Source: a virus (taxonomy: Duplodnaviria; Heunggongvirae; Uroviricota; Caudoviricetes). Taken from it: DNA of 17,175 bases. Location of the stretch: IMG/VR virus record IMGVR_UViG_2872180393_000002; one strand, given 5' to 3'. The notes beneath the pieces were generated by a model that saw only the letters and a list, made by a program, of their open reading frames with translations, ran no database searches and was not told the DNA's origin. Positions 2,945 through 16,815 of this stretch are shown here, piece after piece. The stretch's first letter is position 1. The number at the start of each line of letters is the position of its first letter. A program made the translations under genes and the position numbers.

Positions 2945-3619
2945 ATGAATTCCCAGACAACAAAAGATATTCCCTGCTTCCGTTCTTATTTGCCTGATGC
3001 CCTGCGTTTAAGATTTGAAGATAAACTGACCATCCGGGCCATCGCTCAGCGTCTGGGTCTCAGTCATTCCACAATACATACGCTTTTTCAGCGATTTCTT
3101 GCATCCGGTATCGCATGGCCATTGCCCGATTCAGTTTCATTCGCTCAACTTGACGCCATCCTTTATGCCAACAGAAAGAAGGAATTAACAGAGCCTCAAA
3201 TCAGAGAAGGCTCATGGCGAAAAGAACGGCGAACCAGCTATAGCCGTGAATTTAAGGTCCGTCTGGCTAAGCAGGCGTTACAGCCTGGGGCTGTTGTTGC
3301 CCGGATCGCCAGAGAACACGATATCAATGATAACCTGCTGTTTAAATGGAAAAGCCAGTACGAGGACGGCTTACTGAGCGATGATGACATACAGGAATGC
3401 ATGCCTGTCCCGGTGGCACTGACTGATACGCCGGAGCCGACCAGACCAGTTACAAATCCCTTCTGGCGTAACAAGCATGATGAGCGCCCTGAGGGGGCTC
3501 CCGGAAACGTCCCACGGTGCGAGCTGCATCTTAAATCAGGTGTGGTAAAACTGTTTGACCCTCTCACTCCGGAACTGTTACGGGCGCTAATCCGCGAAAT
3601 GAAAGGGGGTATCCGATGA
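2945..3619 (+). CDS. IS66-family TnpA (helix-turn-helix accessory protein), 224 aa
   Basis: First ORF of the IS66 unit, with an IS66 orf1-like HTH region (SYSREFKVRLAKQAL..ARIAREHDINDNLLFKWKSQY). ATGA overlap with tnpB. Confidence 0.8.
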   Translation: MNSQTTKDIPCFRSYLPDALRLRFEDKLTIRAIAQRLGLSHSTIHTLFQRFLASGIAWPLPDSVSFAQLDAILYANRKKELTEPQIREGSWRKERRTSYSREFKVRLAKQALQPGAVVARIAREHDINDNLLFKWKSQYEDGLLSDDDIQECMPVPVALTDTPEPTRPVTNPFWRNKHDERPEGAPGNVPRCELHLKSGVVKLFDPLTPELLRALIREMKGGIR

Positions 3620-3963
3620 TAACGCTGCCGACCGGTACCAAAATCTGGATCATCGCTGGCATCACAGATATGCGTTGTGGCTTCAATGGCCTGGCTTCGA
3701 AGGTGCAGAACACGCTGAAAGATGACCCGTTCTCCGGGCATATCTTCGTCTTCCGGGGCCGCAGTGGCAAAATGGTGAAAATACTGTGGGCCGATCGTGA
3801 CGGGTTATGCCTGTTCGCCAAACGCCTGGAACGGGGCCGCTTCGTCTGGCCGGTGACCCGGGAAGGGAAAGTGCACCTGACGCCAGCTCAGTTATCCATG
3901 CTACTGGAGGGGATCGCGTGGCAACATCCAAAACGGACAGAACGGCCTGGCATCCGGATATAA
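3616..3963 (+). CDS. IS66-family TnpB (orf2), 115 aa
   Basis: Characteristic IS66 orf2 sequence (MRCGFNGLA..FVFRGRSGKMVKILWADRDGLCLFAKRLE). Confidence 0.9.
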   Translation: MITLPTGTKIWIIAGITDMRCGFNGLASKVQNTLKDDPFSGHIFVFRGRSGKMVKILWADRDGLCLFAKRLERGRFVWPVTREGKVHLTPAQLSMLLEGIAWQHPKRTERPGIRI

Positions 3964-3982
3964 CCCGTGATAAAACAAGGGA

Positions 3983-5584
3983 ATGAACAATGAACTCCCC
4001 GATGATATTGAGCTGCTTAAAGCCATGTTGCGTAAGCAACAGAGTCGGCTTCGACAGTATGCCTGTCAGGTCGCGGGCTATGAGCAGGAAATTGAACGGC
4101 TGAAAGCGCAACTCGACAGGTTGCGTCGTATGTTGTTCGGCCAGAGTTCAGAGAAAAAGCGTCATAAGCTTGAAAATCAGATCCGACAGGCAGAAAAACG
4201 ACTGTCGGAACTGGAAAACCGGCTGAACACAGCCAGAAATCTTCTGGAAGATGCATCGTCAGTCACAGATTCACCTGACACCAGTCCCCCGTCAGAAAAC
4301 CCGATCGCCAGTAAGCCTGAATCCCCGGGACGAAAATCTTCACGAAAACCGCTGCCGGCAGAACTTCCCCGGGAGACACATCGCCTTCTGCCTGCTGAAA
4401 CCAGTTGCCCGGCCTGTGGAGGTGTTCTGAAAGAAATGGGGGAAACAATCTCAGAGCAACTGGATATCATTAATACCGCCTTTAAAGTTATCGAAACCAT
4501 ACGTCCCAAACTGGCCTGTAGCCGGTGTGATGTCATCGTTCAGGCACCACTTCCCCCTAAACCGATCGAACGCGGTTATGCCAGTGCAGAGTTACTTGCA
4601 CGGATCCTGGTCAGCAAATATATGGAACATATCCCTTTATATCGCCAGTCAGAAATATACGCGCGACAGGGCGTGGAGCTGAGCCGTAATACCATGGTGC
4701 GCTGGGTATCAGAAATGGCAGACAAACTCCGTCCTCTGTATATAGCGCTGAATGACTATGTTCTGGAGGCAGGAAAGGTGCACGCAGATGACACTCCGGT
4801 GAAAGTACTGGCCCCGGGGAACGGAAAGACGAAAACGGGTCGTCTGTGGGTATACGTCAGGGATGATCGTAATGCGGGTTCATCCCTGCCGGCAGCCGTC
4901 TGGTTCGCGTATTCGGCAGATCGCAAAGGAGAACATCCGCAGCGCCACCTGGCAAAGTATCAGGGCGTACTGCAGGCTGATGCCTATGCAGGTTATAACG
5001 TACTGTACGAAACGGGCCGGGTGAAGGAAGCCGGGTGCCAGGCCCACGCCCGCCGAAAAATCCATGACGAGGATGTGCGCCGTCCGACAGAAATGACTCA
5101 GGAAGCGCTCAGACGGATAGCAGAGTTATACGACATAGAAGCGGAGATACGTGGCAGTCCGGCAGAGGAACGGCTTGCAGTCAGAAAAGCCAGAAGCGTC
5201 CAGTTGATGCAGTCGTTGTACGACTGGATACAGTTGCAGAGGAAAACGCTGTCGAAACATGCGGAGATGGCGAAGGCGTTCGACTATATCCTGAATCACT
5301 GGAATGCGCTGAACGAGTTCTGTCGTGACGGCTGGGTGGAAATAGACAACAACATCGGTGAAAACGCGTTACGATCGGTGGCGGTTGGAAGAAAAAATTA
5401 TCTCTTTTTCGGCTCAGACAAGGGAGGAGAAAGTGCGGCGATCATCTACAGTCTGCAGGTCACCTGCAAACAGAACGAAGTGGAGCCGGAGGACTGGTTG
5501 CGCGAAGTGATCGAGAAGCTCAATGACTGGCCGTCGAACCAAGTGCATGAACTGCTGCCCTGGAACTTCTCGTCTGTAAAATAA
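3983..5584 (+). CDS. IS66-family transposase TnpC (DDE), 533 aa
   Basis: N-terminal leucine zipper, CxxC..CxxC zinc finger, and a DDE core typical of IS66 TnpC. Confidence 0.9.
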
Positions 5585-6054: not shown

Positions 6055-6118
6055 TGAGGTAGCCTGAGTTTAACGGACACTCCTTCCTGAAATAGAATGG
6101 CATCAGAAGGAGCTAATA

Positions 6119-6421
6119 ATGAGCAGAAAAACCCAACGTTACTCTAAAGAGTTCAAAGCCGAAGCTGTCAGAACGGTTCTTGAAAATCAACTTTCGATCA
6201 GTGAAGGCGCTTCCCGATTATCCCTTCCTGAAGGCACTTTAGGACAATGGGTTACCGCCGCCAGAAAAGGGCTCGGTACTCCTGGTTCCCGCACGGTGGC
6301 TGAACTGGAATCTGAAATTCTGCAACTGCGTAAGGCGTTAAATGAAGCTCGCCTTGAGCGAGATATATTAAAAAAAGCAACAGCGTATTTTGCACAGGAG
6401 TCGCTGAAAAATACGCGTTAA
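6119..6421 (+). CDS. IS3-family OrfA (HTH), IS600-like
   Basis: 100-aa ORF with an IS3-type HTH and leucine zipper, identical in all three copies. Confidence 0.9.
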   Translation: MSRKTQRYSKEFKAEAVRTVLENQLSISEGASRLSLPEGTLGQWVTAARKGLGTPGSRTVAELESEILQLRKALNEARLERDILKKATAYFAQESLKNTR

Positions 6422-6456
6422 TCGAACAATGGCGACAACAATTTCCCATTGAAGCG

Positions 6457-7275
6457 ATGTGTCAGGTATTTGGTGTATCCAGGAGCGGTTATTACAACTG
6501 GGTACAGCATGAACCCTCAGACAGAAAACAAAGTGATGAGCGGCTAAAACTGGAGATTAAGGTGGCACATATCCGCACTCGCGAAACATATGGAACCCGG
6601 CGGCTCCAGACGGAGCTGGCAGAGAATGGCATCATCGTTGGTCGTGACCGACTGGCACGTCTTCGTAAGGAGCTAAGGCTACGCTGTAAGCAGAAACGCA
6701 AGTTCAGAGCGACTACGAACCCGAACCACAATCTGCCAGTTGCGCCAAATCTGCTGAACCAGACGTTCGCTCCTACAGCACCAAATCAGGTCTGGGTGGC
6801 GGACCTGACGTATGTTGCCACACAGGAGGGATGGTTGTACCTAGCTGGCATCAAAGATGTTTATACGTGCGAAATTGTCGGCTACGCCATGGGAGAGCGC
6901 ATGACAAAAGAGCTGACAGGTAAAGCCCTGTTTATGGCGCTCAGGAGCCAGCGCCCACCTGCCGGGCTAATCCACCACTCTGATCGAGGTTCACAGTACT
7001 GCGCATACGATTACCGGGTCATACAGGAGCAGTTTGGTCTGAAAACATCAATGTCGCGTAAAGGTAACTGTTACGACAACGCTCCGATGGAAAGCTTCTG
7101 GGGAACGCTGAAAAATGAGAGCCTGAGCCACTATCGTTTTAATAACCGGGATGAAGACATCTCAGTAATACGGGAATACATTGAGATTTTCTACAATCGT
7201 CAGCGTCGTCACTCTCGTCTGGGGAATATCTCCCCGGCAGCCTTCAGGGAAAAATATCATCATATGGCTGCTTAA
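6457..7275 (+). CDS. IS3-family OrfB (DDE integrase-type transposase catalytic domain); expressed as an OrfAB fusion by -1 frameshifting
   Basis: DDE / rve-type motifs (WVADLTY..., HHSDRGSQY..., NAPMESFWGTLKNE). The frame is open upstream of the first ATG back to the slippery site. Confidence 0.9.
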   Translation: MCQVFGVSRSGYYNWVQHEPSDRKQSDERLKLEIKVAHIRTRETYGTRRLQTELAENGIIVGRDRLARLRKELRLRCKQKRKFRATTNPNHNLPVAPNLLNQTFAPTAPNQVWVADLTYVATQEGWLYLAGIKDVYTCEIVGYAMGERMTKELTGKALFMALRSQRPPAGLIHHSDRGSQYCAYDYRVIQEQFGLKTSMSRKGNCYDNAPMESFWGTLKNESLSHYRFNNRDEDISVIREYIEIFYNRQRRHSRLGNISPAAFREKYHHMAA

Positions 7276-7318
7276 AAAAAGAACAAATGGTAGTGTCCGC
7301 TATTGCCAGTACACCTCA

Positions 7319-8246: not shown

Positions 8247-8289
8247 TGAGGTGTACTGGCAATAGCGGACACTACCATTTGTTCTTTTT

Positions 8290-9108
8290 TTAAGCAGCCA
8301 TCTGATGATATTTTTCCCTGAAGGCTGCCGGGGAGATATTCCCCAGACGAGAGTGACGACGCTGACGATTGTAGAAAATCTCAATGTATTCCCGTATTAC
8401 TGAGATGGCTTCATCCCGGTTATTAAAACGATAGTGGCTCAGGCTCTCATTTTTCAGCGTTCCCCAGAAGCTTTCCATCGGAGCGTTGTCGTAACAGTTA
8501 CCTTTACGCGACATTGATGTTTTCAGACCAAACTGCTCCTGTATGACCCGGTAATCGTATGCGCAGTACTGTGAACCTCGATCAGAGTGGTGGATTAGCC
8601 CGGCAGGTGGGCGCTGGCTCCTGAGCGCCATAAACAGGGCTTTACCTGTCAGCTCTTTTGTCATGCGCTCTCCCATGGCGTAGCCGACAATTTCGCACGT
8701 ATAAACATCTTTGATGCCAGCTAGGTACAACCATCCCTCCTGTGTGGCAACATACGTCAGGTCCGCCACCCAGACCTGATTTGGTGCTGTAGGAGCGAAC
8801 GTCTGGTTCAGCAGATTTGGCGCAACTGGCAGATTGTGGTTCGGGTTCGTAGTCGCTCTGAACTTGCGTTTCTGCTTACAGCGTAGCCTTAGCTCCTTAC
8901 GAAGACGTGCCAGTCGGTCACGACCAACGATGATGCCATTCTCTGCCAGCTCCGTCTGGAGCCGCCGGGTTCCATATGTTTCGCGAGTGCGGATATGTGC
9001 CACCTTAATCTCCAGTTTTAGCCGCTCATCACTTTGTTTTCTGTCTGAGGGTTCATGCTGTACCCGGTTGTAATAACCGCTCCTGGATACACCAAATACC
9101 TGACACAT
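8290..9108 (-). CDS. IS3-family OrfB (DDE), copy B
   Basis: Matches copy A except for point differences (W to R near the N-terminus, D to A, H to Q near the C-terminus). Confidence 0.9.
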   Translation of the reverse strand: MCQVFGVSRSGYYNRVQHEPSDRKQSDERLKLEIKVAHIRTRETYGTRRLQTELAENGIIVGRDRLARLRKELRLRCKQKRKFRATTNPNHNLPVAPNLLNQTFAPTAPNQVWVADLTYVATQEGWLYLAGIKDVYTCEIVGYAMGERMTKELTGKALFMALRSQRPPAGLIHHSDRGSQYCAYDYRVIQEQFGLKTSMSRKGNCYDNAPMESFWGTLKNESLSHYRFNNRDEAISVIREYIEIFYNRQRRHSRLGNISPAAFREKYHQMAA

Positions 9109-9143
9109 CGCTTCAATGGGAAATTGTTGTCGCCATTGTTCGA

Positions 9144-9446
9144 TTAACGCGTATTTTTCAGCGACTCCTGTGCAAAATACGCTGTTGCTTTTTTTAATAT
9201 ATCTCGCTCAAGGCGAGCTTCATTTAACGCCTTACGCAGTTGCAGAATTTCAGATTCCAGTTCAGCCACCGTGCGGGAACCAGGAGTACCGAGCCCTTTT
9301 CTGGCGGCGGTAACCCATTGTCCTAAAGTGCCTTCAGGAAGGGATAATCGGGAAGCGCCTTCACTGATCGAAAGTTGATTTTCAAGAACCGTTCTGACAG
9401 CTTCGGCTTTGAACTCTTTAGAGTAACGTTGGGTTTTTCTGCTCAT
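9144..9446 (-). CDS. IS3-family OrfA, copy B
   Basis: Identical to OrfA of copy A. Confidence 0.9.
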   Translation of the reverse strand: MSRKTQRYSKEFKAEAVRTVLENQLSISEGASRLSLPEGTLGQWVTAARKGLGTPGSRTVAELESEILQLRKALNEARLERDILKKATAYFAQESLKNTR

Positions 9447-9507
9447 TATTAGCTCCTTCTGATGCCATTCTATTTCAGGAAGGAGTGTCCGTTAAACTCA
9501 GGCTACC

Positions 9508-10923
9508 TCATAAAGCCCGTGCCTTCTCAGGGTCGGTAAAGTTCGCCAGCAATCGGCGGATAATAACGGGGATTTCAGCCGCAATCTTTTCCGGTAGCTC
9601 CCTGTCTTTTTCGGCCTCACTGACGATATTGTCGAAACGGAAAATCACGCGACGACGTGCCACACCTCCGGCCCGTTCGGTGAATATCATCGGGTTGTTG
9701 TCGGTCGCCAGCACCACCGCCCTGATTACCGCCGTGAAACGCTTTTCATATTTCGGGTTAATTTCCACGGGGTCGCCGCCCGTGATTTTCTTGATGCCCG
9801 TTCCTTCGCCTGTATATTTCGGCTGGTCAGCCAGGACGATAAGACGACTCCCGACAACCTGCGCACGTCCACCAGCATCATCAAGCGATGTCATTTCAGC
9901 GCTTACCGTGTTCTGTTTCCCTGCCAGAAGGCTGGCTATGTGTGTGAATGTACTTTTACCGCTCCCGCCGTCTCCGGTGGCCTCAATAAACATCTGCCAG
10001 TCGTACCGGTTCGCCATAATCATGTAAAGCGCGGCACATATGCGCATCATCTTGCGCGGGTCTTTTCCGGCTGCGTGATCAAGCCATTTATGAAAGTTTG
10101 GCGCGTTGTCGCGGATATTCTCCCCTGGTGCTGGTGGCGTGTACTCAATGCCGTTGTGCGTGGTGATCCAGTTCTCCGGCGTGTGCGGGGAAAATTCCCC
10201 CGTTTTCAGGTTAAGCACACCATTAGTGAACGGTAGCAAATCACTGGACGGCTCGCCCATCGGGTCAGCAATAACTTTTAACGCTTCAACGGCGTTATTA
10301 ATTGCCCGCTTGCTGAATGTGGCCCCGTGTTCTGAATAAACCGCCACCATTTCGCGGCTCAGTTCCATTGTGCTGACCGGACACCATATCCCGCCGCGCC
10401 ATACGTGAACGATTTCACTTTCCGGATGCACACAAACGCCATCAAATCGACCAGCAAGCATCTGTGCGCGCTCACTGTCTGCCATCTGCGAAAGTTGCGC
10501 CTTTTGCTTTACCGGAAGCTCAATGACCAGACCATCAGAAAGATTCTGGCGTTCACGGGCCAGATATTCGCGCCAGTTCTGCACCTCCTGGCCGTGCATA
10601 CCCTCAAGATAAAAATTTGCATCCTGTACACCTGCCGCCGCCAGCTTCTGACCAATCGCCTTGATCATTACAGGCTCAAGATGTCCGGCTCTGTATATGC
10701 GTGCTGATTTTCTGCCATCCGGCACAATTTGCAGATTATCCAGTTCGGATAGCTGCTGCTCTCCAAGCCACACAGGAGGCTCATTATCTCCGGCTGTACG
10801 CGCGTCATGTTCCTGCCACTGTTTCGCGTGTGCCCAGGCATCACTACCCGCAAAGATAATTACCTCTGTGTCTTTGTGTTTTATTCCGCGTGGCTGTTTT
10901 TTTACGTTCGGTGCCAGTTTCAT
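9508..10923 (-). pseudogene. replication protein: N-terminal primase-associated region, D5_N-like region and SF3 (P4-alpha / D5-type) helicase with Walker A GDGGSGKST; truncated, with its stop codon supplied by the IS end
   Basis: Walker A and downstream SF3 motifs. The stop TGA is the complement of the terminal TCA of the IS at 9508-9510. Confidence 0.8.
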
Positions 10924-11691: not shown

Positions 11692-12915
11692 ATGACCGAA
11701 TCCAGCGATTACGAATCCGTCCAGGTCTTTATCGGCGTTGATGTCGGTAAAGATACGCATCACGCTGTTGCCATTAATCGTTCAGGTAAACGCCTGTTCG
11801 ATAAAGCATTACCCAACGACGAAAACAAACTCAGGTCGCTAATATCTGACCTGAAACAACATGGTCAGATACTTCTGGTTGTTGATCAGCCAGCTACCAT
11901 CGGTGCGTTACCTGTCGCCGTTGCCCGCTCAGAAGGAGTCCTTGTCGGATACCTCCCTGGACTGGCCATGCGCCGCATAGCCGACTTACACGCCGGTGAA
12001 GCTAAAACTGATGCTCGTGACGCTGCCATCATTGCCGAAGCTGCCCGTACCCTGCCTCACGCGCTACGCACGCTGAAACTGGCTGACGAGCAAATCGCCG
12101 AACTCTCCATGCTCTGCGGCTTCGATGATGATCTTGCCGCACAGACAACGCAGGCCAGCAACCGTATCCGCGGCCTTCTGACCCAGATACATCCGGCACT
12201 GGAGCGCGTTCTCGGTCCGAGACTTGAGCACCCGGCGGTACTCGATCTTCTCCAGCGATATCCCTCACCAGAAAAACTCGCTTCGCTGGGTGAGAAGAAG
12301 CTGGCAGCCCAGCTCTGCAAACTTGCGCCTCGTCTGGGTAAACGCCTTGCAGCAGACATAGCTCAGGCACTGGCCGAACAAACCGTCGTCGTTCCCGGCA
12401 CGAATGCCGCTGCCGTAGTACTGCCACGTCTGGCACTCCAGCTCATCACGCTGCGTAAGCAAAGAGACGAGGTGGCGCTTGAGGTAGAACAGCGAGTTCT
12501 TGCTCACCCTCTTTACCCGGTCCTGACCAGTATGCCCGGAGTCGGTGTCAGGACCGCAGCCAGACTCCTCACCGAGGTCGCCTGCCGCGCCTTCGCCTCT
12601 GCCGCACATCTCGCTGCTTATGCTGGCCTTGCGCCGGTAACTCGGCGATCCGGCTCGTCAATACGCGGTGAGCATCCCTCGCGACGGGGTAATAAAGCTC
12701 TCAAACGGGCGTTGTTCCTGTCGGCCTTCGCCGCGCTCAGGGATCCGCTCTCCAGGGCTTACTACACCCGCAAAATGAGTCAGGGAAAACGACACAATCA
12801 GGCGCTTATCGCCCTGGCGAATACGGGCCGCGAATACAGCAACACAACCGGACGGGCAATGGTTACGCGCTTCGCGTTCAGTCCAGGCGGTGACGTGGAT
12901 GATTTGGGACTCTGA
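11692..12915 (+). CDS. IS110-family recombinase/transposase (N-terminal DEDD RuvC-like domain, C-terminal Tnp domain), 407 aa
   Basis: N-terminal IGVDVGKDTHH motif, helix-hairpin-helix MPGVGVRTAARLL, and C-terminal RRSGSSIRGEH..ALKRALFLSAF serine motif. AGGGAG RBS. Confidence 0.9.
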   Translation: MTESSDYESVQVFIGVDVGKDTHHAVAINRSGKRLFDKALPNDENKLRSLISDLKQHGQILLVVDQPATIGALPVAVARSEGVLVGYLPGLAMRRIADLHAGEAKTDARDAAIIAEAARTLPHALRTLKLADEQIAELSMLCGFDDDLAAQTTQASNRIRGLLTQIHPALERVLGPRLEHPAVLDLLQRYPSPEKLASLGEKKLAAQLCKLAPRLGKRLAADIAQALAEQTVVVPGTNAAAVVLPRLALQLITLRKQRDEVALEVEQRVLAHPLYPVLTSMPGVGVRTAARLLTEVACRAFASAAHLAAYAGLAPVTRRSGSSIRGEHPSRRGNKALKRALFLSAFAALRDPLSRAYYTRKMSQGKRHNQALIALANTGREYSNTTGRAMVTRFAFSPGGDVDDLGL

Positions 12916-13762: not shown

Positions 13763-13975
13763 GTGCTACGGCGCATTGCTTTACAGGTACACACAATGAC
13801 CAACAAAGAATCAACCAATACACCATCGCAAAAAACGAACAGAGAGCACGAAAATATGGCGCTCGAGCATGAATCAGAAAGATTCGCACCATGTGCTTTT
13901 GCCCTTGAGCAATTCCTTAAAGAGTACAGGGAAACGCGCTCATTGCAGGTATGGCAACGAACTGAACCAGCCTGA
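13763..13975 (+). CDS. hypothetical protein of 59-70 aa (likely start MTNKES..)
   Basis: Open frame downstream of the 65-aa gene, convergent with alpA. No family recognised. Confidence 0.3.
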   Translation: MLRRIALQVHTMTNKESTNTPSQKTNREHENMALEHESERFAPCAFALEQFLKEYRETRSLQVWQRTEPA

Positions 13976-14048
13976 TAGCGTCTATCATCCCCGTGCTTAT
14001 GTTTGGGATCACATACACATAAGGCGCAGCGGGTTAATTGTTCAGAAA

Positions 14049-14076
14049 GGCGGCTCCATATCGGGGCCGCTTTTTT
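14049..14076 (+). terminator. weak candidate terminator for the plus-strand small genes
   Basis: 5-bp stem GCGGC/GCCGC around an 11-nt loop, followed by T6 (14071-14076). Confidence 0.25.
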
Positions 14077-14102
14077 CGTGTTTGTCATATCTGTGATACC
14101 CG

Positions 14103-14309
14103 TTAAGCAGCCGTTCCGCGTGCTTCCTGTTCGCGTTCTTTCTGCCAGGCCAACACATCATCCTCATACCATCCGCGACGGCGTAAACCAACGCGAAAAC
14201 CCTGCGGAAATTCTCCGGCGTTGATCATGCTTTGCAGCGTGCTGTCTGCCTTGATGTGGATAATTTTTTTTACTTCCTGGCGAAAGATAATTTTTCTGAT
14301 TGCTTCCAT
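14103..14309 (-). CDS. alpA: AlpA-family transcriptional regulator / excisionase-like protein (68 aa)
   Basis: Size, position next to a P4-type integrase, and the motif pattern (IHIKADSTLQSMINAGEFPQGFRVGLRRRGWYEDDVLAWQ) typical of the phage AlpA DNA-binding domain. Confidence 0.75.
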   Translation of the reverse strand: MEAIRKIIFRQEVKKIIHIKADSTLQSMINAGEFPQGFRVGLRRRGWYEDDVLAWQKEREQEARGTAA

Positions 14310-14421
14310 CGTGATTTACCTTGTGAATCCGGTGTATTCCGGTGACAAATACGGTAAATCATCGGATATGGGTAAAAACAGTTCCCACCGTTTTTATATT
14401 GATGATTTGAAATGGAATTAT

Positions 14422-14444
14422 AAAAAAAGCGGCATTTCTGCCGC
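14422..14444 (-). terminator. rho-independent terminator between the 83-aa ORF and alpA
   Basis: Hairpin GCGGCA-tttc-TGCCGC at 14429-14444, preceded on the plus strand by A7 (14422-14428), which is a U7 tail on the minus strand. Confidence 0.6.
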
Positions 14445-14455
14445 TTCCAGGATTG

Positions 14456-14707
14456 TTACCGCCATTTTTGGGGCCTGCCTCCGATCTTCATAGATGCCGG
14501 ACGTACGACCTTATCAATACTTACCGCCAGATTTCTGGAAGCGCCACGGGATACCAGAAAATCTACTACCTGTTTTTTTGATGGGGCCGTCGTTCTGTCC
14601 TCCGGATCGTAGGTTGACCAAAATTCATGCTGAACCATCAGGGCCAGTTGCAGCCCGTCGCAATTGCATCTGATATTTTTTTGCATCTTAACGGTTTCAT
14701 GTTTCAC
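14456..14707 (-). CDS. hypothetical 83-aa protein between int and alpA
   Basis: Open frame ended by the terminator above. No family recognised. Confidence 0.35.
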   Translation of the reverse strand: MKHETVKMQKNIRCNCDGLQLALMVQHEFWSTYDPEDRTTAPSKKQVVDFLVSRGASRNLAVSIDKVVRPASMKIGGRPQKWR

Positions 14708-14784
14708 GGCCTTGTCGTTAAATTTGATGCAATTATACGATGGTTTTACATGGTTTTCGTAGTTTTTACTGGTTTTCTGTACAG

Positions 14785-15552
14785 CTACACGGCTCGGATA
14801 CCCCTTTTACCACTGGCGAGGGTTACGCCCGTCGCCGCAGCCTCGACAAATTCGCCCCACCAGCGCATCAGCACGATGCGTTTTTCTATGTAGTTGCTCC
14901 GGTTGTATGCCCGTCTAACTTCGTTGGTGTCGACGTGGGCAAGTGCCGCCTCTATTACGTCCGGCTCGAATCCTTCCTCGTTCGCTGCTGTGCTGAATAT
15001 GGCGCGTAATCCATGAGACACCAGCACGCCAGCGAATCCCATACGCTGCAATGCTGCGTTAGCGGTCTGGCTGTTCATCGGCTGCTGTGGGTCTTTCAGA
15101 CTTGGGAAAACGTAATTGCGGTGGTGGCTGATTGGTTTCATGGCCTCCAGCACCGCCATAGCCTGACCGGAAAGCGGGATAACGTGATCCCTGCGCATCT
15201 TCATGCGTCCTGCAGGTATCGTCCATTGCTTCGCGTCCAGGTTGATTTCATCCCACCGCGTTGATGACGCTTCGGCGGGACGGGTTACGGTCAGTAACTG
15301 CCATTCAATCAGTAATCTGGTCTGCCGTTCTGTTGCCGATACTGATAAAGCCTGCATAAGCTCCGGCAGCTGTTCGGGGCGGATTGTTGGCATATGTTTT
15401 TTTACAGGTGAGGGAAACGCCTTACGCACATTCATAGCCGGATTGGCATCAATCAGCCCACTGTTGGCGGCGTAATCCATTACCTCATTAACGCGCTGTA
15501 AAACCCGCTTGAGTGTTTCCAGGTTGCCGCGCTCCTTGATGGGTGTAAGCAC
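14785..15552 (-). pseudogene. int: tyrosine integrase (P4-type), C-terminal catalytic part; gene interrupted by IS600-like copy C
   Basis: Catalytic-domain motifs HGLRAIFST (H-x-x-R) and RAYNRSNY (tyrosine nucleophile). The 5' end abuts the IS at 15552/15553. Confidence 0.85.
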
Positions 15553-15616
15553 TGAGGTAGCCTGAGTTTAACGGACACTCCTTCCTGAAATAGAATGGCA
15601 TCAGAAGGAGCTAATA

Positions 15617-15919
15617 ATGAGCAGAAAAACCCAACGTTACTCTAAAGAGTTCAAAGCCGAAGCTGTCAGAACGGTTCTTGAAAATCAACTTTCGATCAGT
15701 GAAGGCGCTTCCCGATTATCCCTTCCTGAAGGCACTTTAGGACAATGGGTTACCGCCGCCAGAAAAGGGCTCGGTACTCCTGGTTCCCGCACGGTGGCTG
15801 AACTGGAATCTGAAATTCTGCAACTGCGTAAGGCGTTAAATGAAGCTCGCCTTGAGCGAGATATATTAAAAAAAGCAACAGCGTATTTTGCACAGGAGTC
15901 GCTGAAAAATACGCGTTAA
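15617..15919 (+). CDS. IS3-family OrfA, copy C
   Basis: Identical to OrfA of copies A and B. Confidence 0.9.
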   Translation: MSRKTQRYSKEFKAEAVRTVLENQLSISEGASRLSLPEGTLGQWVTAARKGLGTPGSRTVAELESEILQLRKALNEARLERDILKKATAYFAQESLKNTR

Positions 15920-15954
15920 TCGAACAATGGCGACAACAATTTCCCATTGAAGCG

Positions 15955-16815
15955 ATGTGTCAGGTATTTGGTGTATCCAGGAGCGGTTATTACAACTGGG
16001 TACAGCATGAACCCTCAGACAGAAAACAAAGTGATGAGCGGCTAAAACTGGAGATTAAGGTGGCACATATCCGCACTCGCGAAACATATGGAACCCGGCG
16101 GCTCCAGACGGAGCTGGCAGAGAATGGCATCATCGTTGGTCGTGACCGACTGGCACGTCTTCGTAAGGAGCTAAGGCTACGCTGTAAGCAGAAACGCAAG
16201 TTCAGAGCGACTACGAACCCGAACCACAATCTGCCAGTTGCGCCAAATCTGCTGAACCAGACGTTCGCTCCTACAGCACCAAATCAGGTCTGGGTGGCGG
16301 ACCTGACGTATGTTGCCACACAGGAGGGATGGTTGTACCTAGCTGGCATCAAAGATGTTTATACGTGCGAAATTGTCGGCTACGCCATGGGAGAGCGCAT
16401 GACAAAAGAGCTGACAGGTAAAGCCCTGTTTATGGCGCTCAGGAGCCAGCGCCCACCTGCCGGGCTAATCCACCACTCTGATCGAGGTTCACAGTACTGC
16501 GCATACGATTACCGGGTCATACAGGAGCAGTTTGGTCTGAAAACATCAATGTCGCGTAAAGGTAACTGTTACGACAACGCTCCGATGGAAAGCTTCTGGG
16601 GAACGCTGAAAAATGAGAGCCTGAGCCACTATCGTTTTAATAACCGGGATGAAGCCATCTCAGTAATACGGGAATACATTGAGATTTTCTACAATCGTCA
16701 GCGTCGTCACTCTCGTCTGGGGAATATCTCCCGGCAGCCTTCAGGGAAAAATATCATCAGATGGCTGCTTAAAAAAAGAACAAATGGTAGTGTCCGCTAT
16801 TGCCAGTACACCTCA
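15955..16815 (+). pseudogene. IS3-family OrfB, copy C, frameshifted about 14 codons before the normal stop by a 1-bp deletion; the frame reads out of the IS to 17175
   Basis: CTCCCGGCAG here versus CTCCCCGGCAG in copies A and B. The DDE core lies upstream of the lesion and is intact. Confidence 0.8.

What the first reader, a model, noticed from the sequence alone, without database searches (positions are those of the whole stretch)
14322..14347. Direct repeat TCCGGTG (x2) just upstream of alpA
TGTGAATCCGGTGTATTCCGGTGACA contains two tandem heptamers between the alpA ribosome-binding site and the upstream terminator. It may be a regulator-binding site controlling alpA, which is the usual induction switch in islands of this type.
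Basis: seen in the sequence. Interest (0 to 1): 0.2.

Follow-up and report, generated by a model that had tools for sequence, protein, structure and literature searches.

The report
Conserved AlpA-type operator upstream of alpA
The two short repeats in front of the alpA gene are real and conserved across related phage-satellite islands, and they match a row of repeats at the island's integration arm, so they are most likely where the small excisionase-like protein AlpA binds to control its own gene; this is an ordinary kind of regulatory site whose sequence had not been described for these islands.

Summary
The repeat is there. TCCGGTG sits at 14328-14334 and 14338-14344. On the alpA strand this reads CACCGGAATA|CACCGGATT, two 10-bp units ending 3 nt before the SD.

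As a bare 7-mer repeat it is not significant. Conservation makes it significant. It is almost invariant in about 30 distinct alpA upstream regions. It also persists, in phase and at the same distance from the SD, in six lineages whose AlpA is only 48-60% identical and whose remaining upstream DNA is unrelated. Two strains carry three units.

In intact relatives the same motif, in the same orientation and phase, forms arrays in the attL arm. These lie between the tRNA core and a different doubled motif (TTAGTTATACG) found on both island arms, which I read as Int arm sites. That is the classical position of excisionase (RDF) sites.

My best reading is a pair of head-to-tail AlpA boxes giving autoregulation, as with P4 Vis, 186 Apl and RdfS. 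Binding and the sign of regulation are inferred, not shown.

A second, non-exclusive layer exists. The boxes form the apex of a hairpin whose flanks pair an anti-SD with the SD.

The induction input more likely lies in upstream palindromes. In this window the island is an IS-riddled remnant. I rate this a new member of a known kind, of moderate interest.

The parts
14335..14344 (-). Box 1 (distal): CACCGGAATA on the alpA strand
   Evidence: Invariant in alignments A1 and A3. Conserved as xxCCGGAAT in distant lineages.
14326..14334 (-). Box 2 (proximal): CACCGGATT, 10 bp downstream of box 1. It ends 3 nt before the SD and 16 nt before the ATG.
   Evidence: Reads CGCCGGATT in clade 3 and xxCCGG(T/A)AT in distant lineages. 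A third in-phase unit is present in L006 and L040.
14319..14322 (-). Shine-Dalgarno AAGG of alpA
   Evidence: Sequence. AGGTAAA is conserved in A1 and A3.
14103..14309 (-). alpA, a 68-aa excisionase-like wHTH protein
   Evidence: ORF. PHROG 66 and 2790, 'excisionase and transcriptional regulator', E = 5.5e-7 and 3e-6. Pfam PF05930 scores 17.6 bits, below the gathering score of 21. The best PDB match by sequence and by fold is 8c3t, the GIsul2 excisionase.
14353..14361 (-). Left arm TGATTTACC (anti-SD) of the inverted repeat or hairpin that encloses the boxes. It is part of the invariant block TTTACCGTATTT.
   Evidence: Fold z = -3.0. One compensatory change and one G.U-compatible change in relatives.
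14312..14320 (-). Right arm GGTAAATCA. It covers the GG of the SD and, with the adjacent pairs, reaches the start codon.
   Evidence: Analogous anti-SD/SD pairing in unrelated leaders.
14374..14395 (-). Palindrome O2, AAAAACGGTGGGAACTGTTTTT. Its partner O1 is missing here through a 21-bp deletion.
14425..14448 (-). Intrinsic-terminator-like hairpin plus T-run that ends the upstream ORF
14456..14707 (-). Small ORF between int and alpA (83 aa from GTG; 76 aa as annotated in relatives), no family match
   Evidence: It is replaced by unrelated ORFs, or is absent, in lineages that keep the boxes.
14785..15552 (-). C-terminal 255 codons of the P4-like integrase, cut off by an IS3-family copy that starts at 15553

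Best explanation
The repeat is a pair of head-to-tail DNA boxes, each a CACCGGA core in a 10-bp unit. The island's own AlpA protein, a small excisionase-like winged-helix protein, binds them. AlpA also occupies in-phase arrays of the same box in the attL arm, where it acts as the recombination directionality factor.

At its own gene the two boxes lie at -35 to -17 from the ATG. That places them at or just downstream of the transcription start, so bound AlpA feeds back on alpA expression.

What is shown: the motif, its phasing, its conservation and its identity with the attL arrays. What is inferred: that AlpA is the binder. What is unresolved: the sign of the feedback. The position argues for repression, as with RdfS, Vis and Apl at their own promoters. 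Published PICI data for a different AlpA allele show positive autoregulation.

The boxes also form the top of a hairpin that can hide the SD in transcripts starting further upstream. This would keep read-through from int translationally silent.
For: 1. Conservation in close relatives. The boxes are invariant, apart from one A>G, in about 30 distinct upstream regions of three clades, while neighbouring blocks vary.

2. Deep conservation. Six lineages with 48-60% AlpA identity and unrelated upstream DNA keep CCGG(A/T)AT-N-xxCCGG(A/T) at period 10 directly 5' of the SD. Chance gives 0-2 in 3000 per locus.

3. Unit expansion. L006 and L040 gained a third unit of exactly 10 bp.

4. Same motif in attL. 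In Nissle the arm carries CACCGGAtat CACCGGAaag CACCGGAtaa next to the tRNA-Pro core, then CACCGAAcat CACCGGAttt ... AGCCGGAttt in phase. Orientation and phase match the alpA boxes. Islands inserted at ssrA likewise carry phased YCGG(T/A)A units.

5. One arm only. No array is found on the right arm in two genomes. A different doubled motif, TTAGTTATACG or TTAGCTAYACG, lies on both arms next to int, as Int arm-type sites do. The layout core, box array, arm sites is that of Xis sites in lambda (my own knowledge).

6. Not the intervening ORF. The boxes persist whichever ORF lies between int and alpA.

7. Not Int. E. albertii keeps the Int arm motif but lacks the boxes in both places, and its AlpA recognition helix differs (TEMVNKG against QSMINAG).

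8. AlpA looks like an excisionase or MerR-like wHTH. Relatives such as BldC and RdfS bind direct repeats one helical turn apart, and RdfS binds both attP and its own promoter (PMC11963761).

9. PICI AlpA is needed for excision and regulates its own promoter (PMC6092414, PMC11773190).

10. EcCICFT073 shows the same logic with another motif. Period-10 ACAAC-type arrays occur in attL, after int and upstream of its alpA.
Against: No binding experiment exists, and the assignment to AlpA rests on co-occurrence.

One lineage (L076) keeps the boxes although its recognition helix differs (YDLIQSG). The protein-motif correlation is therefore imperfect.

The AlpA family match is weak: Pfam is below its gathering score, NCBIfam finds nothing, the model has pLDDT 72, and Foldseek gives E = 1.

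No sigma-70 consensus promoter is found, so the position of the boxes relative to the transcription start is unknown.

A site this close to the SD fits poorly with the positive autoregulation reported for EcCICFT073.

CCGG is self-complementary, so part of the conservation could come from RNA structure.

In this window the attL arm is not present and int is split by an IS, so the system is a relic here.
Confidence: 0.55

Rival explanations
1. The element acts mainly at the RNA level. The two CCGG cores pair as the apical stem of a leader hairpin whose lower stem pairs an upstream anti-SD with the SD and start codon, giving translational silencing of alpA. On this view the direct repeat is a by-product of that structure, and no protein reads the DNA boxes at alpA.
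For: A 9-bp stem UGAUUUACC/GGUAAAUCA plus an apical CCGG/CCGG stem gives z = -3.0. There is one compensatory change (A-U to U-A in clade 3) and one G.U-compatible change. Unrelated leaders fold the same way, with an anti-SD just 5' and the SD just 3' of the boxes: L070 GCUCCACU/AGUGGAGU z = -4.5, L068 z = -3.3, L075 z = -3.1. E. albertii has anti-SD pairing without boxes.
Against: Structure alone does not require CCGGA(A/T)T to stay invariant in both units across lineages, since other self-complementary stems would serve. It does not explain the identical phased arrays in the attL arm. It does not explain the 10-bp unit expansion. Several z-scores are weak: -0.95, -0.99, -1.6, -1.8. Covariation rests on a single event. 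Whether the left arm is transcribed is unknown.
Confidence: 0.2
2. The boxes bind a protein other than AlpA. Candidates are the helper-phage inducer, a host factor, the integrase, or the small ORF upstream. In that case the repeat would be the induction input the first reader proposed.
For: The inducer of Gram-negative PICIs and its target are unknown, and helper phages raise PalpA activity (PMC6092414). Direct repeats at 10-bp phase also suit response-regulator-type factors (my own knowledge). L076 keeps the boxes despite a changed AlpA helix.
Against: An external inducer has no reason to have sites in the attL arm next to the core. The upstream ORF is not conserved among box-bearing lineages. 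Int has its own doubled motif on both arms, and that motif is retained in E. albertii where the boxes are absent. The variable palindromes further upstream look more like lineage-specific inputs.
Confidence: 0.15
3. The repeat is a chance or slippage product with no function.
For: Such 7-mer repeats are common in the window: 16 observed against 6.5 expected. The copy number varies between 2 and 3 units.
Against: The boxes are deeply conserved at a fixed position in otherwise unalignable leaders. The motif also recurs in attL arrays.
Confidence: 0.03

Closest known systems
Bacteriophage P4 Vis (an AlpA homologue): excisionase that also regulates P4 promoters
   Same: Both are small AlpA-like wHTH proteins encoded next to a P4-type integrase. 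[quoted passage not shown] From my own knowledge, Vis also regulates P4 late promoters, including the one that drives vis.
   Different: Sequence relatedness is remote. No P4 Vis box sequence was compared here. P4 lacks the PICI gene set. The box CACCGGA and its place directly 5' of the SD are specific to this AlpA subfamily.
RdfS of ICEMlSymR7A; also 186 Apl and P2 Cox (dual-purpose RDF and transcription regulators)
   Same: These are wHTH RDFs that multimerise head-to-tail on att DNA beside an Int arm site. They also bind their own or a switch promoter, and RdfS negatively autoregulates (PMC11963761).
   Different: They belong to different elements (an ICE and P2-like phages). No consensus box could be defined for RdfS, whereas here a sharp 7-bp core is evident. 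The sign of regulation here is unknown.
AlpA of EcCICFT073 and other Gram-negative PICIs
   Same: The island type is the same. The Nissle relative shares identical downstream proteins with EcCICFT073. AlpA there is required for induction and excision and acts on its own promoter. Both show period-10 arrays in attL and upstream of alpA.
   Different: The AlpA allele (62 aa), the motif (ACAAC-type) and the site position (-70 to -43 from the start codon, plus an array after int) all differ. Positive autoregulation was measured only for that allele.
Fold-back inhibition of IS10 transposase translation (my own knowledge)
   Same: An upstream segment pairs with the ribosome-binding site, so transcripts entering from outside are not translated.
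   Different: It is only predicted here. Whether the native start lies inside the hairpin is unknown.
Pseudomonas aeruginosa AlpA and its AlpA-binding element
   Same: They share only the name, and the fact that a DNA element near a promoter is read by the protein.
   Different: That AlpA has eight helices with contact residues at positions 128-142. It binds a single GGGACG between -35 and -10 and acts as a Q-like antiterminator (PMC9371919). The protein here has 68 aa.

Membership tests
RDF (excisionase) binding-site arrays with autoregulatory copies | Tandem direct repeats in helical phase (about 10-11 bp) | tested here: met
   Two units at period 10 in the window. Three units in L006 and L040. 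TRF finds a period-10 array in the Nissle attL arm.
RDF (excisionase) binding-site arrays with autoregulatory copies | The same motif lies in one att arm only, between the core and the Int arm-type sites | tested here: met
   Shown in Nissle, the L002-L006 set, and the ssrA islands L073 and L075. No array on the right arm in two genomes. Not testable in the window itself, because attL lies beyond its end.
RDF (excisionase) binding-site arrays with autoregulatory copies | A cognate small wHTH RDF is encoded beside the integrase | tested here: inconclusive
   PHROG 'excisionase and transcriptional regulator', E = 5.5e-7. Pfam PF05930 scores 17.6 bits, below the gathering score of 21. NCBIfam finds nothing. 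The best PDB match is the GIsul2 excisionase, at E = 0.096 by sequence and TM 0.61/0.70 by fold, but Foldseek E = 1 and the model has pLDDT 72.
RDF (excisionase) binding-site arrays with autoregulatory copies | The protein is shown to bind the sites | not testable with these tools
   This needs EMSA or footprinting. No published AlpA box for PICIs was found.
Integrase arm-type sites | Copies of the motif lie on both arms of attP, that is in both attL and attR | tested here: not met
   CACCGGA arrays are on the int-proximal arm only. The motif found on both arms is TTAGTTATACG or TTAGCTAYACG.
Gram-negative PICI (EcCICFT073 type) | Unidirectional gene order int - alpA - icd/ash zone - DUF4222 - primase - PerC - capsid, decoration protein and small terminase, at a specific att site | tested here: met
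   Intact relatives at tRNA-Pro show this order, and several proteins are identical to those of EcCICFT073. The window holds remnants: int fragment, alpA, D5_N primase and capsid, interrupted by IS66, IS3 and IS110 elements.
Gram-negative PICI (EcCICFT073 type) | Induction and transfer by a helper phage | not testable with these tools
   Shown in the literature for EcCICFT073, EcCIEDL933 and EcCIMP1 only.
SD-sequestering leader hairpin (fold-back inhibition) | An anti-SD is complementary to the SD, and the pairing is kept by covariation | tested here: inconclusive
   99.5% of cells are paired, with one compensatory pair from a single event. Analogous pairing with different sequences occurs in distant leaders, with z from -0.95 to -4.5.
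SD-sequestering leader hairpin (fold-back inhibition) | The transcript includes the left arm, or alternative starts include and exclude it | not testable with these tools
   No promoter consensus is found, and no TSS data are held.
Q-like antiterminator loading site (P. aeruginosa AlpA/ABE) | A multi-helix protein of roughly 140 aa or more forms an RNA-exit-channel ring, with a single ABE between -35 and -10 and a sigma-dependent pause | tested here: not met
   The protein here has 68 aa. The description of the Pseudomonas protein comes from PMC9371919.

The most novel reading that the evidence does not exclude
The element may be dual-coded. The AlpA boxes are also the apex of an SD-sequestering hairpin. 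Transcripts reading in from int would then be translationally dead, while transcripts from the activated alpA promoter start inside the hairpin and are translated. AlpA bound to the boxes, on DNA or on the box-containing RNA stem, would set the feedback. This would be a three-layer lock (terminator, fold-back hairpin, operator) on the master switch of a phage satellite. The variable upstream palindromes would serve as exchangeable helper-phage inputs.
Probability: 0.15. Interest if true: 0.6.

Novelty: new member of a known kind. Interest (0 to 1): 0.38.

Why it matters
Papers on Gram-negative PICIs state that AlpA is the master activator, that it acts on its own promoter, and that helper phages switch it on. 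In the papers I could search, neither the AlpA binding site nor the target of the inducer has been defined.

This analysis gives a concrete box for one AlpA subfamily: C(A/G)CCGGA(A/T)T at 10-bp phase. It separates that box from the Int arm motif. It points to a lineage-variable palindrome pair as the likelier input site.

Together these make several things directly testable: the autoregulation, the RDF role of AlpA, and the search for the helper-phage inducer. The general principle, an RDF that also regulates its own gene, is already well known.

Tried and rejected
- Sigma-70 promoter scan of 13900-14900: no site. Hand inspection gave only weak candidates. One is TACCGT as a -10, which would put O2 at -41.5 and the start at box 1. 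That remains speculation and is not used as evidence.
- P. aeruginosa AlpA/ABE antiterminator model: rejected. It is a different, much larger protein with a single GGGACG site.
- Integrase arm-site reading of the repeat: rejected. The motif is on one arm only, and another motif occupies both arms.
- Small ORF 14456-14707 as the binder: rejected. It is not conserved among box-bearing lineages and has no family hit.
- Search for the O1/O2 palindrome in IMG/VR (AAAACGGT-N4-ACCGTTTT): 23 hits, about what I estimated for chance, and the pattern excludes O1 itself by one base. Uninformative.
- Neither motif was found at the icd-operon promoter of the Nissle island, so these data do not show a common AlpA box for downstream promoters.
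- EcCIMP1: its AlpA is a different subfamily with other repeats, so its positive autoregulation cannot be transferred.
- The genome-contig scan gave only 4 loci, and the search for homologous proteins gave only close relatives.
- The structure model is of moderate quality, and the fold matches are not statistically significant.
- Searches for 8C3T and for P4 Vis papers found nothing usable.

Full report
**What is in the sequence**

Positions 14322-14347 (+) read TGTGAATCCGGTGTATTCCGGTGACA, with TCCGGTG at 14328-14334 and 14338-14344. The neighbouring gene is on the minus strand. alpA runs 14309..14103 and encodes 68 aa.

On the coding strand the element is CACCGGAATA CACCGGATT. These are two 10-bp units ending 3 nt before the SD AAGG (14322-14319) and 16 nt before the ATG. 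Upstream lies a terminator-like hairpin (14448-14425, minus strand) that closes a small ORF (14707..14456).

The description is therefore correct. The one refinement is that the heptamers are the cores of 10-bp units, not contiguous repeats. Taken alone, a 7-mer repeated at short range is not remarkable. The window has 16 such repeats, against 6.5 +/- 2.3 in shuffles.

**Context**

The best E. coli matches are 94-95% identical and show what the locus is. It is a phage-inducible chromosomal island inserted at tRNA-Pro beside yejM. The gene order is int, small ORF, alpA, YlcI/Icd/ash zone, DUF4222, primase, PerC, capsid, decoration protein, small terminase.

The Nissle 1917 copy shares several identical proteins with EcCICFT073, the reference Gram-negative PICI. 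It differs in the int-alpA module.

The window itself holds only a ruin of such an island:
- int is split by an IS3-family copy at 15553.
- Two further identical copies of that IS, an IS66 element and an IS110 element break up the rest.
- The attL arm lies beyond the window end.

**Conservation**

I aligned ten alpA upstream regions from E. coli genomes at 78-95% identity. The two units are invariant, except for A>G in the second unit of the most divergent clade. Blocks on either side change freely. About 30 distinct versions from IMG/VR agree. Strain 2012EL-2448 and contig L040 carry three units, an expansion of exactly 10 bp.

The distant lineages are more telling. Their AlpA is only 48-60% identical and their remaining upstream DNA cannot be aligned. 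Six of them still carry the pair at the same place, directly 5' of the SD:
- L068: CACCGGAattGACCGGAttt
- L070: tACCGGAatccCCCGGTAtt
- L072: CACCGGAatcCACCGGTAtc
- L073/74: CGCCGGAatcCTCCGGTAtt
- L075: CGCCGGAattCACCGGTAtt
- L076: tGCCGGAataCGCCGGAgc (all)

Shuffling each upstream region yields such a pair in 0-2 of 3000 trials. The element is conserved.

**The same motif in the attachment arm**

In intact relatives CACCGGA recurs between the tRNA-Pro gene and int, in the same orientation and phase. Directly after the tRNA come CACCGGAtat CACCGGAaag CACCGGAtaa. After a hairpin come CACCGAAcat CACCGGAttt, a degenerate unit, then AGCCGGAttt.

In the Nissle island the heptamer occurs nine times, all on one strand. 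Six of these lie in the two non-coding places. Three pairs sit at +10, against none in 300 shuffles.

Next to int there is a different repeat, TTAGTTATACG, as two direct and two inverted copies. This one recurs as a doublet at the right end of the island, just inside an imperfect copy of the tRNA 3' end.

A second genome, with a clade-3 island, repeats the pattern with TTAGCTAYACG on both arms and no phased CCGGA array on the right arm. Islands of the same AlpA subfamily inserted at ssrA show the same layout: core, phased YCGG(T/A)A units, hairpin, more units, doubled arm motif, int.

A motif on both arms beside the recombinase gene is what integrase arm-type sites look like. A phased array on one arm, between those sites and the core, is where excisionase (RDF) sites lie in lambda. 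That last comparison is from my own knowledge.

**Who binds**

The small ORF between int and alpA is replaced by unrelated ORFs, or is absent, in lineages that keep the boxes. It can be set aside.

Int can also be set aside. The E. albertii island keeps the Int arm motif but has no CCGGA boxes in attL or at alpA.

AlpA remains. It matches PHROG families annotated as excisionase and transcriptional regulator (E = 5.5e-7 and 3e-6). Its best PDB relative, by sequence and by predicted fold, is the GIsul2 excisionase, followed by BldC, RacA and MerR-type domains. These matches are weak: Pfam is below threshold, the model has pLDDT 72, and Foldseek gives E = 1.

The recognition helix reads DS-x-(L/F)-Q-x-MINAG in box-bearing lineages. 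It is altered in the three lineages without boxes (E. albertii, L071, L069). L076 is an exception, with the helix changed and the boxes kept.

The literature gives the functional frame. PICI AlpA is needed for excision and induction and acts on its own promoter, and helper phages raise PalpA activity. I found no description of a binding site or of the inducer's target. Dual-purpose RDFs that bind att DNA as head-to-tail multimers and also their own promoter are well documented: RdfS, P4 Vis, 186 Apl and P2 Cox, with BldC binding at one helical turn per subunit.

**Mechanism and its open part**

I conclude that the repeat is most likely a two-box AlpA operator giving feedback on alpA. The sign is not settled.

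No sigma-70 consensus promoter is present. That fits an activator-dependent promoter but leaves the start site unknown. Boxes this close to the SD must lie at the start site or in the leader, which favours repression, as with RdfS. In EcCICFT073 autoregulation is positive. There a different motif (period-10 ACAAC-type units) sits further upstream of alpA, after int, and in attL.

Upstream of the boxes, relatives carry two palindromes 20 bp apart: AAAAACGGTGTATACCGTTT and AAAAACGGTGGGAACTGTTTTT. They are unique to this region within the island. The window retains only the second (14374-14395), after a 21-bp deletion between direct repeats. Distant lineages carry other upstream elements instead. 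These variable sites are better candidates for the helper-phage input than the constant boxes.

**An RNA layer**

As RNA, the leader folds so that UGAUUUACC (14361..14353) pairs with GGUAAAUCA (14320..14312). This covers part of the SD, with adjacent pairs reaching the AUG, while the two CCGG cores pair at the apex (z = -3.0).

Clade 3 has a compensatory change (UGUUUUACC/GGUAAAACA) and one strain has a G.U-compatible change. This amounts to a single evolutionary event.

Unrelated leaders of the distant lineages fold alike, with their own anti-SD just 5' of the boxes. L070 has an 8-bp stem GCUCCACU/AGUGGAGU with z = -4.5. Others range from -0.95 to -3.3.

This hairpin could silence read-through transcripts from int, in the manner of IS10 fold-back inhibition (my own knowledge). 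It does not explain the strict conservation of CCGGA(A/T)T or the attL arrays. I therefore treat it as a second, compatible layer rather than as the explanation of the repeat.

**Verdict**

This is a new member of a known kind, RDF operators shared between an att arm and the RDF's own gene. It has practical value for PICI work because it names a testable box. In this particular window the system is vestigial.

Noticed in passing
window 14374-14395 (minus strand); relatives e.g. L010 2111-2151: Relatives carry a pair of palindromes, AAAAACGGT-N4-ACCGTTT (O1) and AAAAACGGTGGGAACTGTTTTT (O2), 20 bp centre to centre upstream of alpA. The window and the L017-type contigs have lost O1 through a 21-bp deletion between direct repeats TAAAAACGGTG. 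The pair is unique to this spot in the island and is replaced by other elements in distant lineages. It is a candidate helper-phage input site.
   Followed up: partly
window 14312-14320 and 14353-14361: A 9-bp inverted repeat (TGATTTACC / GGTAAATCA) brackets the boxes and can sequester the SD in RNA. There is one compensatory change in clade 3. Analogous anti-SD/SD pairing occurs in unrelated alpA leaders, including E. albertii, which has no boxes.
   Followed up: partly
window 14740-14782; L010 1731-1765: A period-10 array sits immediately after the int stop codon. On the alpA strand it reads GAAAACCAGT AAAAACTACG AAAACCATGT AAAACCAT. EcCICFT073 has a period-10 ACAAC array at the equivalent place. 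The AAAAC core resembles the O1/O2 half-site. The binder is unknown.
   Followed up: no
L010 395-449 and 11653-11675; L103 (reverse strand) 523-562 and 14727: A doubled motif, TTAGTTATACG (TTAGCTAYACG in clade 3), lies next to int and again at the right end of the island, just inside an imperfect copy of the tRNA 3' end. These are probably integrase arm-type sites, and the motif changes with the Int allele.
   Followed up: partly
window 6055-7318, 8247-9510, 15553-16732: There are three 100%-identical copies of an IS3-family element (orfA 100 aa, orfB 272 aa), one of them inverted. The third copy splits the island integrase, and its identity to the others ends at 16732.
   Followed up: partly
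window 2945-5584, 11692-12915, 1412-2467, 9508-10923: The window also holds an IS66-family element (three ORFs) and an IS110-family transposase, lying between PICI remnants: a major capsid protein (Phage_cap_E) and a D5_N/DUF5906 primase. The island is heavily decayed, as is typical of an IS-rich Escherichia/Shigella genome. The best E. coli RefSeq match to the int-alpA segment is only about 95%.
   Followed up: partly
L011 3714-3757 and 3803-3868 (E. albertii): The related island in E. albertii has other arrays between int and alpA: four 11-bp GGAGCCAATTT units and three 22-bp CCCATTATTTAAAGTCAGAAGA units. Its attL arm carries phased ATCATCGTT-type units instead of CACCGGA.
   Followed up: no
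L010 3150-3300 (Nissle island, between the YlcI/YnfO gene and the icd-like operon): The divergent promoter region contains several TGTAAG/CTTACA repeats around a near-consensus TTGACA hexamer. This looks like a separate operator system, and it contains neither the CACCGGA boxes nor the palindromes.
   Followed up: no
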